Below the pieces are notes generated by a model. That model saw only the letters and a program-made list of their open reading frames with translations. It was not told where the DNA came from and made no database searches. DNA of 64,000 nt from a virus: the IMG/VR virus record IMGVR_UViG_3300047274_000223; one strand, given 5' to 3'. Made by a program: the position numbers and the translations under genes. Positions 28,505-38,543 of this stretch are shown here, in pieces (the first letter of the stretch is position 1; every line of letters starts with the position of its first letter).

Positions 28505-28577
28505 GGGGAATTAGCTCAGTTGGTAGAGCACCTGCTTTGCAAGCAGGCTGTCAGGAGTTCGAGTCTCCTATTCTCCA
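28505..28577 (+). tRNA. trnA: tRNA-Ala (anticodon UGC), CCA not encoded
   Basis: Cloverleaf: acceptor GGGGAAT/ATTCTCC plus A discriminator, D-arm TAGCTCAGTTGGTAGAGC, anticodon arm CCTGC-TTTGCAA-GCAGG, T-loop GTTCGAG. Confidence 0.97.
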
Positions 28578-38009: not shown

Positions 38010-38096
38010 TTAGTTTAGTGTAGCAATATAAAGTTGTGCTTCTTGAAGTCTCCTCTGTTTGAGGATTTGCTGACGGATAACATTCAACCAATTCAT
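38010..38096 (-). CDS. 28-aa micro-protein (MNWLNVIRQQILKQRRLQEAQLYIATLN)
   Basis: Strong AAGGAGG RBS; ATGA coupling to the upstream DUF4278 gene. Confidence 0.7.
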   Translation of the reverse strand: MNWLNVIRQQILKQRRLQEAQLYIATLN

Positions 38097-38254
38097 TGTG
38101 TTACCTCCTTGTTATTGTTACAAGGACGATAAGCAACACCACGATATGTATTAGTTGGATGTGCTGGTGCATGTGTTTGTGAATACCAGTGCTGATATTC
38201 TTGCTTTGGTGTTTCAGTATCGTACTTTACACCACGGTAGGTTGCTTGTGACAT
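38093..38254 (-). CDS. DUF4278-family small protein (MSQATYRGVKYDTETPKQ...NTYRGVAYRPCNNNKEVTQ, 53 aa)
   Basis: Two TYRGV-x-Y motifs, the DUF4278 hallmark; AAGGAGA RBS. Confidence 0.85.
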   Translation of the reverse strand: MSQATYRGVKYDTETPKQEYQHWYSQTHAPAHPTNTYRGVAYRPCNNNKEVTQ

Positions 38255-38284
38255 TAGGGTTCTCCTTAAGTGTTAGATTAAAGA

Positions 38285-38457
38285 GCGTTCCTTCAGTCGG
38301 CTTTTGCGTCTATCTTACATTCTTTTCTTGTCATTTGTTTGACCTCCCAGACAATATTATTCTTCTGTTGAAGTGATAGTTCTGGGTGTGTCATCACTCT
38401 ACCAACAATAAATTGTGCTTGGAGACAAGTTAATAAGAGTGCTTCCATAGATGAACG
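38285..38457 (-). ncRNA. Glutamine-riboswitch-like unit 2 (glnA/Downstream-peptide family) with an ORF in its P2 loop
   Basis: Minus strand CGTTCATCT[ATG...AT]AGACGCAAAAGCCGACTGAAGGAACGC; P1 CGUUC/GAACG, P2 UCUAU/AUAGA. Confidence 0.65.
38293..38448 (-). CDS. 51-aa peptide nested in the riboswitch-like RNA (MEALLLTCLQAQ...KECKIDAKAD)
   Basis: ATG directly after CGTTCATCT; stop inside the 3' strand of the RNA motif; two Cys. Confidence 0.6.
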   Translation of the reverse strand: MEALLLTCLQAQFIVGRVMTHPELSLQQKNNIVWEVKQMTRKECKIDAKAD

Positions 38458-38460
38458 ATC

Positions 38461-38505
38461 CGTTCCGAGTCGGCTTACTTCCGTCTGCATTATAGCAGAT
38501 GAACG
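38461..38505 (-). ncRNA. Glutamine-riboswitch-like unit 1 (glnA-type)
   Basis: Minus strand CGTTCA-TCTGC-TATAAT-GCAGA-CGGAAGTAAG-CCGACTCGGAACG; the CGGAAGUAAG junction matches glnA aptamers. Confidence 0.7.
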
Positions 38506-38529
38506 TAAAATATATAGTGAAAATCTTTT

Positions 38530-38543
38530 GTAAAATGTGATAC
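38530..38543. promoter_or_regulatory. NtcA-type binding site GTA-N8-TAC
   Basis: GTAAAATGTGATAC, 24 nt upstream of riboswitch unit 1 and overlapping the expected -35 region. Confidence 0.55.

What the first reader, a model, noticed from the sequence alone, without database searches (positions are those of the whole stretch)
38285..38457. A complete 51-codon ORF sits inside the P2 loop of a riboswitch-like aptamer
Seen: unit 2 aligns with unit 1 on both flanks (CGTTCATCT ... AGAC G-x-AA ... AAGCCGACT ... GGAACG), but the 10-nt P2 hairpin interior of unit 1 is replaced by about 135 nt of coding sequence. The A and U of the AUG pair in P2 (UCUAU/AUAGA), and the UGA stop lies in the 3' junction strand (CCGAC-UGA-AGGAACG). 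Folding and translation therefore look mutually exclusive. GAACG-GAU-CGUUC between the units forms an alternative hairpin. A nested fold is also possible: 5' half of unit 1 (GGAAGUA) with the distal UGAAG-GAACG, which mimics a glnA E-loop. Inference: ligand binding, leader-peptide translation and downstream DUF4278 expression are mechanically coupled. A split aptamer like this would be missed by standard CM searches.
Basis: partly seen in the sequence, partly recalled or inferred. Interest (0 to 1): 0.8.

Follow-up and report, generated by a model that had tools for sequence, protein, structure and literature searches.

The report
Gene nested inside phage glutamine riboswitch
A cyanophage glutamine-sensing RNA carries a real 51-codon protein gene inside one of its stems, so the gene's start and stop codons are parts of the sensor itself; the layout is shared by over a hundred related phage sequences and I found no description of it in the literature I could search.

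Summary
On the minus strand, a full glnA-type aptamer (38505-38461, Rfam 35.9 bits) is followed by a second aptamer-like unit (38457-38285). Its P2 stem (UCUAU/AUAGA) encloses a 51-codon ORF. A and U of the AUG lie in the stem, and the UGA lies in the GAAG junction.

This is not chance. In an IMG/VR sample chosen only by the junction between the units, 112 of 160 distinct second units are long and 111 carry such an ORF. In 105 the stop is at the same junction position.

- **The stem covaries:** 98.8% standard pairs against 60% in shuffles.
- **The ORF interior is under purifying selection:** median dN/dS is 0.29.
- **The last codons (D-A-K-A-D-stop) are frozen at synonymous sites,** so they are read as protein and used as RNA.

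The two units are not independent aptamers. Compensatory changes support an interleaved fold: outer P1, a P3 duplex formed between the units, the GAACG-GAU-CGUUC hairpin, and a G38481-C38285 pair.

The ORF protein (phrog_504) is a two-Cys helical hairpin of unknown function. Homologous genes sit in the other P2 stem in related phages. That glutamine sensing and translation of the two genes are coupled is inferred, not shown. I found no report of this layout in the searchable literature.

The parts
38507..38543 (-). Promoter-like region: GTA-N8-TAC box (38543-38530) and TTTACA-16-TATTTT, placed so that the transcript would start at or just before the riboswitch
   Evidence: Consensus scan, which is no better than its shuffles. 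A -10 TATAAT lies 7-9 nt before CGTTCA in relatives. The start site was not mapped.
38501..38505 (-). Outer P1, 5' strand CGUUC
   Evidence: Rfam alignment. The strand never varies, so its partner is inferred from the linchpin and hairpin data.
38484..38499 (-). P2 hairpin UCUGC-UAUAAU-GCAGA. In 38 of 120 distinct relatives this stem holds an ORF instead.
   Evidence: All 4 counted pairs change on both sides, and 99.3% of cells are paired.
38476..38483 (-). Junction CGGAAGUA: the AGUA half of the E-loop, and G38481, the linchpin G
   Evidence: Rfam consensus. AGUA is present in unit 1 and absent from unit 2 in 155 of 157 tandems.
38468..38475 (-). P3, 5' strand AGCCGACU, pairing with 38295-38302
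   Evidence: Pairs between the units: AU26/GC5/GU2 and UA14/GC7/AU4. The within-unit alternatives fail in 11-15 sequences.
38453..38465 (-). Inner hairpin GAACG-GAU-CGUUC (unit 1 3' strand with unit 2 5' strand)
   Evidence: Predicted pair probability is 0.7-0.8. A clade of 16 loci has AAACG with CGUUU, a G-C to A-U change, and no uncompensated form was seen.
38447..38451 (-). P2' 5' strand UCUAU; contains A and U of the ORF start codon (AUG 38448-38446)
   Evidence: Positions 2-4 form standard pairs in 98.8% of 110 ORF-bearing units against 60% in shuffles (0 of 2000 shuffles reach it). The A of the AUG is paired in 104 of 110.
38293..38448 (-). Nested gene, 51 codons plus UGA (phrog_504 family)
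   Evidence: phrog_504, E 1.7e-6. 40 homologous protein clusters. Median dN/dS is 0.29. AlphaFold2 pLDDT is 82, two helices.
38309..38313 (-). P2' 3' strand AUAGA (codons Ile-Asp)
   Evidence: It covaries with the 5' strand. The residue encoded here (I, W, K, E, R, V...) follows the stem sequence.
38303..38308 (-). Inner junction CGCAAA (codons Asp-Ala-Lys, in part)
   Evidence: The Ala codon is GCA in 105 of 105 ORFs that stop in the junction. Interior Ala codons have a third-base entropy of 1.5 bits.
38295..38302 (-). P3, 3' strand AGCCGACU (codons Lys-Ala-Asp and the U of UGA)
38291..38294 (-). Junction GAAG: the GAA half of the E-loop. The stop codon UGA is 38295-38293.
   Evidence: GAA is present in unit 2 and absent from unit 1 in all 157 tandems. 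The stop is at this position in 105 of 111 ORFs.
38286..38290 (-). Outer P1, 3' strand GAACG
   Evidence: Sequence; it never varies.
38278..38285 (-). C38285 (linchpin partner of G38481) and the anti-Shine-Dalgarno stretch CUCUUUAA
   Evidence: Column pair 30-108 is CG25/GC9 with none unpaired. In 157 tandems it is C-G in 121 and G-C in 36. Helix probability is 0.93-1.0.
38262..38269 (-). Shine-Dalgarno region UUAAGGAG of the DUF4278 gene
   Evidence: Paired with 38278-38285 in the predicted ensemble. The core is predicted to be sequestered in linkers of this type, with or without the nested ORF.
38093..38254 (-). DUF4278 (IF17-like) gene, 53 codons
   Evidence: PF14105 25.5 bits against a cut-off of 25.3; phrog_5049 E 1.1e-12.

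Best explanation
**What it is.** The element is the 5' leader of a cyanomyovirus DUF4278 (IF17-like) gene. It forms one interleaved glutamine-riboswitch fold built from two aptamer-like repeats.

**The fold.**
- The outer three-way junction has every feature of the canonical glnA aptamer:
  - P1 is 38505-38501 with 38290-38286.
  - P2 is a hairpin.
  - The CGGAAGUA junction faces GAAG.
  - P3 is AGCCGACU of repeat 1 paired with AGCCGACU of repeat 2.
  - The linchpin pair is G38481-C38285.
- P3 is capped by an inner junction made of the hairpin GAACG-GAU-CGUUC and a stem P2' (UCUAU/AUAGA).

**The nested gene.** The loop of P2' is a real 51-codon gene for a small two-Cys helical-hairpin protein (phrog_504). 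The gene and the RNA share nucleotides:
- the AUG starts inside P2';
- the last five codons (D-A-K-A-D) spell the inner junction and the P3 3' strand;
- the UGA sits in the E-loop strand.

**Proposed working (inferred).**
- A ribosome on the ORF must unwind P2', P3 and the E-loop. When it terminates, it also covers the outer P1 3' strand.
- Conversely, the folded core hides the start codon.
- The core can only assemble after the whole ORF has been transcribed, so early ribosomes can load first.
- With glutamine, the folded core is stabilised and the AUG is occluded. C38285 is drawn out of the anti-SD helix, which opens the DUF4278 ribosome-binding site. This is the ON logic described for the Synechocystis gifB riboswitch.
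- At low glutamine the ORF stays translatable.
- Net effect: glutamine shifts expression from the nested gene to the DUF4278 gene. Terminating ribosomes may add some basal coupling.

**Confidence.** I put the anatomy (real gene in a selected stem, dual use of nucleotides, interleaved fold) at about 0.9 and the regulatory logic at about 0.4.
For: **The gene is real.**
- An ORF is open in 111 of 112 long units.
- Third codon positions vary most, and interior dN/dS has a median of 0.285, below 1 in 99.7% of 290 pairs.
- The protein matches phrog_504.
- AlphaFold2 gives pLDDT 82 with a disordered tail over DAKAD.

**The RNA is under selection around the gene.**
- P2' positions 2-4 form standard pairs in 97-99% of sequences, against 60% in shuffles and at most 60% when the partner is slid.
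- Pair types include UA/CG/UG, AU/CG/UA/UG and UA/AU/CG.
- Terminal codons are frozen: GCA in 105 of 105, and the last Asp codon is GAC in 104 of 105 and never GAU.

**The fold is interleaved.**
- Pairs between the units show compensatory changes where within-unit pairs fail.
- The short variants AGUCG/CGACU and GGAAGG/CCUUCC can pair only between units.
- AGUA occurs in unit 1 (all 157) and in only 2 second units; GAA occurs only in unit 2. The strict split holds in 155 of 157.
- The linchpin is a Watson-Crick pair in 157 of 157 tandems only when taken across the units.
- The hairpin shows a G-C to A-U change in a 16-locus clade.
- Constrained folding gives -50.7 kcal/mol for the nested fold and -46.7 for the tandem fold.

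**Expression platform.**
- The 8-bp anti-SD helix starts at C38285.
- The platform is the same with or without the ORF.
- The ON logic and the G23-C60 pair come from PMC6212724.
Against: - No experiment shows glutamine binding, ORF translation or coupling.
- The ORF has no Shine-Dalgarno sequence.
- Nearest-neighbour folding alone does not recover the aptamer. The unconstrained minimum is -59.4 kcal/mol, and the P1 pairs have a probability of 0.02 or less.
- All P1 strands are invariant, so the outer P1 is inferred indirectly.
- The linchpin covariation has only two states and may be a single evolutionary event.
- In the window itself P2' is only 5 bp closing a 133-nt loop.
- Terminating ribosomes could open the anti-SD helix and blur any reciprocal control.
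- Many marine relatives have no clear anti-SD.
- The fixed start and stop positions could be inherited from a single insertion rather than kept by selection for regulation.
Confidence: 0.6

Rival explanations
1. Passive hitchhiker. A small accessory gene settled in a loop that tolerates insertions. The stem is kept only because the riboswitch needs it. The gene simply borrows the promoter, and no regulatory link between ORF translation, glutamine and DUF4278 has been selected.
For: - About 30% of second units lack the ORF and have the same flanks and the same expression platform.
- A phrog_504 relative stands alone in S-CAM7, with no aptamer halves around it.
- Homologous ORFs occur in either P2 or P2', as if cassettes are exchanged.
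- The fixed start and stop positions could reflect one ancestral insertion.
Against: - The AUG is never set back in the loop with its own ribosome-binding site. Its A is paired in 104 of 110 units, and in 43 of 110 the whole AUG lies inside the stem, which reaches up to 15 bp.
- The ORF's last codons are the aptamer core, so translation must disrupt the sensor. Some functional interplay is therefore unavoidable.
Confidence: 0.28
2. Conventional tandem. Two autonomous glutamine aptamers sit side by side (a pseudo-cooperative doublet), and the second is split by an insert.
For: - Each repeat has P1- and P2-like parts.
- Unit 1 alone reaches the Rfam threshold.
- An uninterrupted unit 2 in S-CREM1 scores 33.5 bits.
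- A 2022 review treats glutamine doublets this way (PMC9481103).
Against: - Within-unit P3 pairs and within-unit linchpins fail in 9-15 of 25-34 sequences, where the pairs between units are compensated.
- Neither unit has both halves of the E-loop.
- Short P3 variants cannot form a hairpin within one unit.
Confidence: 0.06
3. Leader-peptide sensor. The act of translating the ORF (for example at glutamine codons), not its product, reports nitrogen status and remodels the leader, as with mgtL in the Salmonella mgtA leader.
For: - The window ORF has 5 Gln among 51 residues.
- The ORF overlaps regulatory structure.
Against: - Marine family members have few Gln and no conserved codon run.
- Purifying selection acts on the whole interior.
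- The two Cys are conserved and the fold is predicted with confidence.
Confidence: 0.04
4. Not a gene. The insert is a long structured extension of the stem.
For: None beyond its position in a stem.
Against: - The frame is open in 111 of 112 units, with lengths that differ by whole codons.
- Codon periodicity of variation and dN/dS of 0.29.
- Matches to a protein family.
Confidence: 0.02

Closest known systems
Type 1 glutamine riboswitch (glnA RNA motif, RF01739), e.g. the Synechocystis gifB leader
   Same: - Same conserved core: CGUUC/GAACG P1, a P2 hairpin, the CGGAAGUA junction, the AGUA/GAA E-loop, and the G-C linchpin to the base after P1.
- Same gene class downstream (DUF4278 / IF17-like).
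- An anti-SD that begins at the linchpin C, as proposed for gifB (PMC6212724).
   Different: - The core is assembled from two repeats.
- P3 is a duplex between the repeats instead of a 3-bp hairpin, and is capped by a second junction.
- A protein gene fills one stem loop.
- Ligand binding is untested here.
Tandem glutamine riboswitches as catalogued (157 doublets, described as 'pseudo-cooperative'; PMC9481103)
   Same: Same sequences: two glnA-like repeats 2-5 nt apart upstream of one gene.
   Different: - The comparative data here argue against two autonomous aptamers and for one interleaved fold.
- The ORF-bearing forms are not found by model searches, so they are probably missing from such counts.
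Short ORFs inside the Salmonella mgtA and mgtCBR Mg2+-sensing leaders (mgtL, mgtM, mgtP); from my own knowledge
   Same: An ORF embedded in a ligand-sensing leader, whose translation and RNA folding compete.
   Different: Those are 8-17 codon sensors of translation speed, without a conserved folded product. They do not lie inside the aptamer's own stem.
Homing-endonuclease ORFs looped out of group I introns of T4-like phages (td, nrdB); from my own knowledge
   Same: A phage protein gene housed in a peripheral loop of a functional RNA fold, with its start region sequestered by RNA structure.
   Different: - There is no intron or ribozyme here (Rfam finds none).
- The host RNA is a metabolite sensor.
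- The ORF's end is itself the conserved core.
Dual-function RNAs (tmRNA, SgrS/SgrT, RNAIII/hld); from my own knowledge
   Same: One transcript is both a structured functional RNA and an mRNA.
   Different: In those, the coding and structural parts are mostly separate. Here five codons, the start codon and the stop codon double as conserved junctions and helices.

Membership tests
Glutamine riboswitch type 1 (RF01739) | Covariance-model score at or above Rfam's gathering score | tested here: met
   Unit 1 (38507-38457) scores 35.9 bits against 35.
Glutamine riboswitch type 1 (RF01739), applied to unit 2 alone (the reported span) | Covariance-model match | tested here: not met
   No match to 38457-38285, even at E<=10 in a 701-nt scan. 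An uninterrupted unit 2 in S-CREM1 scores 33.5 bits, below the cut-off of 35.
Glutamine riboswitch type 1 (RF01739) | E-loop: AGUA strand opposite a GAA strand flanking P3 | tested here: met
   Met only by the composite. AGUA is in unit 1 (38479-38476) and GAA in unit 2 (38294-38292). The same split holds in 155 of 157 tandems.
Glutamine riboswitch type 1 (RF01739) | Long-range Watson-Crick 'linchpin' between the junction G and the base after the P1 3' strand (G23-C60 of the solved structure, as cited in PMC6212724) | tested here: met
   G38481-C38285 across the units. It is a Watson-Crick pair in 157 of 157 tandems (C-G 121, G-C 36). The within-unit alternatives are G.G and C.C in this phage type.
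Glutamine riboswitch type 1 (RF01739) | P2 stem supported by covariation | tested here: met
   In both P2 and P2', 4 pairs each change on both sides and over 99% of cells are paired. In ORF-bearing units P2' is 98.8% paired.
Glutamine riboswitch type 1 (RF01739) | Selective binding of L-glutamine | not testable with these tools
   Needs in-line probing, ITC or SHAPE.
Glutamine riboswitch type 1 (RF01739) | Lies in the 5' leader of a DUF4278/gifB-like gene | tested here: met
   The DUF4278 gene starts 31 nt after the P1 3' strand. A YRG-type ORF lies 31-37 nt downstream in 105 of 113 related loci.
Tandem riboswitch of two autonomous aptamers | Each aptamer forms its own P1, P3 and tertiary pair | tested here: not met
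   The within-unit P3 outer pairs are unpaired in 15 of 29 and 11 of 25 sequences, and the within-unit linchpins in 9 of 34. The pairs between units are compensated.
phrog_504 (phage protein family of unknown function) | Profile match | tested here: met
   E 1.7e-6 for the window ORF. E ranges from 5.6e-16 to 4e-8 for the nested ORFs of P-SSM4, P-HM1 and P-SSM2.
DUF4278 (PF14105) | Score above Pfam's gathering cut-off | tested here: met
   25.5 against 25.3 bits, so marginal. The two YRG motifs are visible in the sequence.
Leader-peptide attenuators | A short ORF whose product is dispensable and which carries regulatory codons | tested here: not met
   dN/dS is 0.29, two Cys are invariant, the fold is predicted with confidence, and there is no conserved codon run.

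The most novel reading that the evidence does not exclude
The 'tandem' glutamine riboswitch of cyanophages is a single, pseudo-twofold, interleaved aptamer.

- Its two P2-type stems are docking sites for homologous small two-Cys protein genes (phrog_504 and phrog_6471).
- The start codons lie in the stems, and the stop codons lie in the ligand-core junctions (UGA in GAAG; UAA in AAGUAAG).
- Glutamine and ribosomes therefore compete for the same nucleotides.
- One sensor would then order the expression of up to three genes: the nested genes when glutamine is low or the fold is not yet made, and the IF17-like gene when glutamine is high.
Probability: 0.4. Interest if true: 0.9.

Novelty: new variant of a known kind. 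Interest (0 to 1): 0.85.

Why it matters
- **Textbook picture.** Riboswitch aptamers are treated as non-coding 5' leader elements. Here a conserved protein gene lies inside the aptamer, and about 20 nucleotides serve both as codons and as the conserved sensor core. That gives a natural system in which ligand binding and translation compete directly.
- **A catalogued class may need a new reading.** If the interleaved fold is right, glutamine doublets are one composite aptamer rather than two pseudo-cooperative ones.
- **Database counts.** Model-based searches would be undercounting these elements. In the viral sample, 70% of second units are ORF-bearing and go undetected.
- **Phage biology.** The finding links two widespread families of unknown small cyanophage proteins to nitrogen sensing and to the IF17-like gene. 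The known cellular relatives of that gene inactivate glutamine synthetase.
- **Testability.** All of this can be tested with in-line probing, compensatory mutants and dual reporters.

Tried and rejected
- **Papers not held.** Ames and Breaker 2011 and Ren et al. 2015 are not in the library. What they say about tandem glnA RNAs could not be checked, so novelty rests on the searchable literature only.
- **Weinberg 2010 alignment.** It lists P-SSM2 with unit 1 aligned and the ORF-bearing unit 2 left as plain 3' flank.
- **Tools not offered.** No whole genome is held for the window.
- **Structure searches for the ORF protein.** Foldseek against the PDB gave no match with E<=0.001, only generic helical hairpins. 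The Atlas gave only unnamed viral clusters. Pfam gave nothing.
- **Thermodynamic folding.** It does not recover the aptamer; the minimum-energy fold is a different structure. I treated this as uninformative, because the core depends on tertiary contacts and ligand.
- **Alignment A5.** MAFFT shifted the P2' 5' strand to line up the AUGs in the ORF-bearing units, so the pair-count tool was not run on it. Pairs were counted from the invariant anchors in scripts instead.
- **Uncompensated hairpin scan.** The scan for CGGAACG...CGTTTAT returned 117 hits, none in a riboswitch context.
- **P1 strand variants.** A relaxed search was uninformative.
- **Bacterial and archaeal genomes.** The search gave 5 hits, all on small MAG or single-cell contigs that look like phage DNA.
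- **IF7/IF17-like inactivating factor.** I considered this for the nested ORF. There is no sequence support.
Full report
**1. What is in the window**

All features are on the minus strand.
- A promoter-like stretch ends at about 38507.
- Next comes a complete glnA-type glutamine aptamer, 38505-38461. Rfam RF01739 scores it 35.9 bits against a gathering score of 35.
- After a GAU spacer the same 5' motif recurs: CGUUC-A-UCUAU, at 38457-38447.
- 133 nt further on, its 3' counterpart follows: AUAGA-CGCAAA-AGCCGACU-GAAG-GAACG-C, at 38313-38285.
- An ORF of 51 codons runs from AUG 38448-38446 to UGA 38295-38293.
- A and U of the AUG are the inner two bases of the 5-bp stem UCUAU/AUAGA.
- The UGA overlaps the GAAG junction.
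- The stretch CUCUUUAA (38285-38278) can pair with UUAAGGAG (38269-38262), the ribosome-binding site of a DUF4278 gene at 38254-38093. Pfam scores that gene 25.5 bits against 25.3. The predicted helix probability is 0.93-1.0.
- Rfam does not report the second unit, even at E<=10.

**2. It is a conserved architecture, not a local accident**

- The ORF has protein-level relatives in Synechococcus phages: DSL-LC03 (94%), S-SRM01 (67%) and DSL-LC02 (61%). It also matches 40 protein clusters from metagenomes.
- In every locus fetched through the protein, the same RNA halves flank the ORF.
- S-CREM1 and S-PM2 have the same two units with a short hairpin in place of the ORF. The S-CREM1 authors annotated theirs as a glnA riboswitch.
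- The classic marine phages P-SSM4, P-HM1 and P-SSM2 have the ORF-bearing form, with quite different ORF sequences.
- A scan of IMG/VR for the 3' half gave 91 distinct ORF-bearing units. All have an ATG-ORF of 49-66 codons, and 90 stop at the same U(G/A)A.
- To avoid selecting on the 3' half, I repeated the sampling with only the junction between the units as the query. The results:
  - 160 distinct second units; 112 are long (152-225 nt) and 48 short.
  - 111 of the 112 long units have an ORF of 49-69 codons.
  - 105 stop at the same junction position.
- The same motif is almost absent from 185,579 bacterial and archaeal genomes. There were 5 hits, all on small MAG or single-cell contigs that carry the whole phage arrangement.

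**3. The insert is a gene**

- Within the clade of the window (45 distinct proteins), variation is concentrated at third codon positions.
- Nei-Gojobori dN/dS over the interior codons has a median of 0.285. It is below 1 in 99.7% of the 290 pairs with usable dS.
- The protein matches phrog_504 (E 1.7e-6). So do the nested ORFs of P-SSM4, P-HM1 and P-SSM2, and a free-standing gene of S-CAM7 that has no aptamer halves around it.
- AlphaFold2 on 27 sequences predicts two helices (residues 8-19 and 26-39) at mean pLDDT 82, with the two invariant Cys near each other. The last seven residues are disordered.
- No solved structure or named family matches. Its function is unknown.

**4. The RNA around and within the gene's ends is under selection of its own**

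- I counted from the invariant anchors (CGUUCA on the 5' side, CGCA on the 3' side). Positions 2-4 of the enclosing stem form standard pairs in 98.8% of 110 ORF-bearing units. Shuffles give 60% (0 of 2000 reach the observed value). Sliding the partner gives at most 60%.
- Several pair types occur at each position, for example UCUAU/AUAGA, UCCCA/UGGGA, UCCUCA/UGAGGA and UCCUUA/UAAGGA.
- The residue encoded by the 3' strand (I, W, K, E, R, V) therefore follows the 5' strand.
- The A of the AUG is paired in 104 of 110 units. The whole AUG lies inside the stem in 43, and the stem reaches up to 15 bp in some lineages.
- The last codons are frozen at synonymous sites. The Ala codon is GCA in 105 of 105, and the last Asp codon is GAC in 104 of 105, never GAU. 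Interior Ala codons have a third-base entropy of 1.5 bits.
- These nucleotides are thus read twice: as D-A-K-A-D-stop, and as junction, P3 strand and E-loop strand.

**5. The two units interleave**

The conventional reading is two aptamers side by side. Several observations contradict it.

(a) *Complementary half-motifs.* AGUA is in every first unit and in only 2 second units; GAA is in every second unit and in no first unit. The strict split holds in 155 of 157 distinct tandems, so the E-loop can only be made across the units.

(b) *The linchpin.* The base equivalent to the linchpin G of the solved structure (G23-C60, as cited in PMC6212724) pairs with the base after the second unit's P1 strand in 157 of 157 tandems: C-G in 121 and G-C in 36. 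The within-unit alternatives are G.G and C.C in the window's type.

(c) *P3 is a duplex between the units.* The two copies of AGCCGACU can form an 8-bp duplex with each other (six Watson-Crick pairs and two C.A).
- On an alignment of 34 uninterrupted tandems, the pair-count tool gives AU26/GC5/GU2 for the outer pair between units and UA14/GC7/AU4 for the inner one. At most one sequence is unpaired.
- The within-unit hairpin pairs are unpaired in 15 and 11 sequences.
- The same compensations occur in ORF-bearing units.
- Shorter variants (AGUCG with CGACU, GGAAGG with CCUUCC) cannot form a hairpin within one unit at all.

(d) *The inner hairpin.* A diversified clade of 16 loci has AAACG in the first unit's 3' strand and CGUUU in the second unit's 5' strand. 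That is compensatory only for the hairpin GAACG-GAU-CGUUC. I found no uncompensated form.

(e) *Energy.* Constrained folding favours the nested topology by 4 kcal/mol.

The fold I therefore propose is:
- outer P1, 38505-38501 with 38290-38286;
- P2;
- the CGGAAGUA junction;
- P3, 38475-38468 with 38302-38295;
- an inner junction with the hairpin 38465-38453 and stem P2' carrying the ORF;
- the GAAG junction;
- the G38481-C38285 pair.

Caveats:
- The P1 strands never vary.
- The linchpin has two states only, which may be one evolutionary event.
- The P3 evidence rests on several distinct variant types.

**6. A wider pattern**

- In 38 of 120 distinct first units, the P2 stem also holds an ORF of 59-73 codons (phrog_6471). 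It again starts in the 5' strand of the stem. In many, the stop is the UAA inside the conserved AAGUAAG junction.
- Some ORF types occur in either stem.
- A profile comparison of the two ORF families gives 95.7% probability, E 9e-9, over the Cys-to-Cys core.
- Both stems are thus hosts for one superfamily of small proteins.

**7. How it may work (inferred)**

- The core cannot assemble until the ORF has been transcribed, so the AUG is exposed at first.
- A translating ribosome must unwind P2', the inner junction, P3 and the E-loop. At the UGA it covers the outer P1 strand and the start of the anti-SD.
- The folded core, in turn, buries the AUG.
- In Synechocystis, glutamine binding turns gifB translation on, probably by drawing the linchpin C and its neighbours out of an anti-RBS helix (PMC6212724). 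The window has the same design, and C38285 is the first base of the anti-SD.
- The platform is the same with or without the ORF.
- The simplest reading is that glutamine favours the folded state (nested gene off, DUF4278 on), and low glutamine leaves the nested gene translatable.
- A passive-hitchhiker reading remains possible. So does coupling through terminating ribosomes.

**8. Known or new**

- The glnA motif, its occurrence in tandem, its presence in cyanophages and its link to DUF4278 are all known.
- The 2022 survey of tandem riboswitches lists 157 glutamine doublets as pseudo-cooperative. It mentions neither a nested fold nor ORFs.
- The 2010 alignment treats the ORF-bearing unit of P-SSM2 as flank.
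- I found no description of genes inside the stems or of the interleaved fold. Two key papers could not be read.

**9. Verdict**

The regulatory coupling is a well-motivated hypothesis that awaits experiment.

Noticed in passing
L033:190-428 (P-SSM4), L034:1-230 (P-HM1), and 38 of 120 distinct IMG/VR first units (e.g. L052, L070, L106): The first unit's P2 stem also hosts an ORF (59-73 codons, phrog_6471). It starts in the stem's 5' strand and often ends with the UAA inside the conserved AAGUAAG junction (...G-R-K-stop). The window's own first unit has only a short hairpin.
   Followed up: partly
window 38530-38543 (minus strand): A GTA-N8-TAC box (NtcA-type consensus) lies upstream of the riboswitch. 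Similar boxes sit at the same place in S-CREM1 (L004), L012 and L031. This suggests nitrogen control at the promoter as well. Spacing to the -10 and the transcription start were not resolved.
   Followed up: partly
window 38010-38096 (minus strand): A 28-codon ORF overlaps the DUF4278 stop by ATGA. Its sequence (NWL..IR.QI....L.EAQL) corresponds to the C-terminal part of the single 48-residue DUF4278 protein of S-CREM1 (L004:780-926). The gene is therefore split or fused differently among relatives.
   Followed up: no
L035:437-586 (P-SSM2, AY939844.2): The nested 49-codon ORF is not annotated in this GenBank record; the hit table lists no feature under the match. It is also unannotated in DSL-LC03 (L001).
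   Followed up: no
L156, L158, L159 (genome contigs): Contigs binned as Acetobacteraceae, Bacteroidota and Acidimicrobiaceae MAGs carry the complete cyanophage riboswitch arrangement. They are probably mis-binned phage DNA.
   Followed up: partly
L024:1445-1700: A variant locus in which the P1 3' motif is duplicated (GACUGAAGGAACG then GACUGAAGGAAAC). It is followed by a terminator-like hairpin and a further CGUUCA motif, instead of a DUF4278 gene.
   Followed up: no
window 28505-28577 (plus strand): A tRNA gene (Rfam RF00005, 71.6 bits).
   Followed up: no
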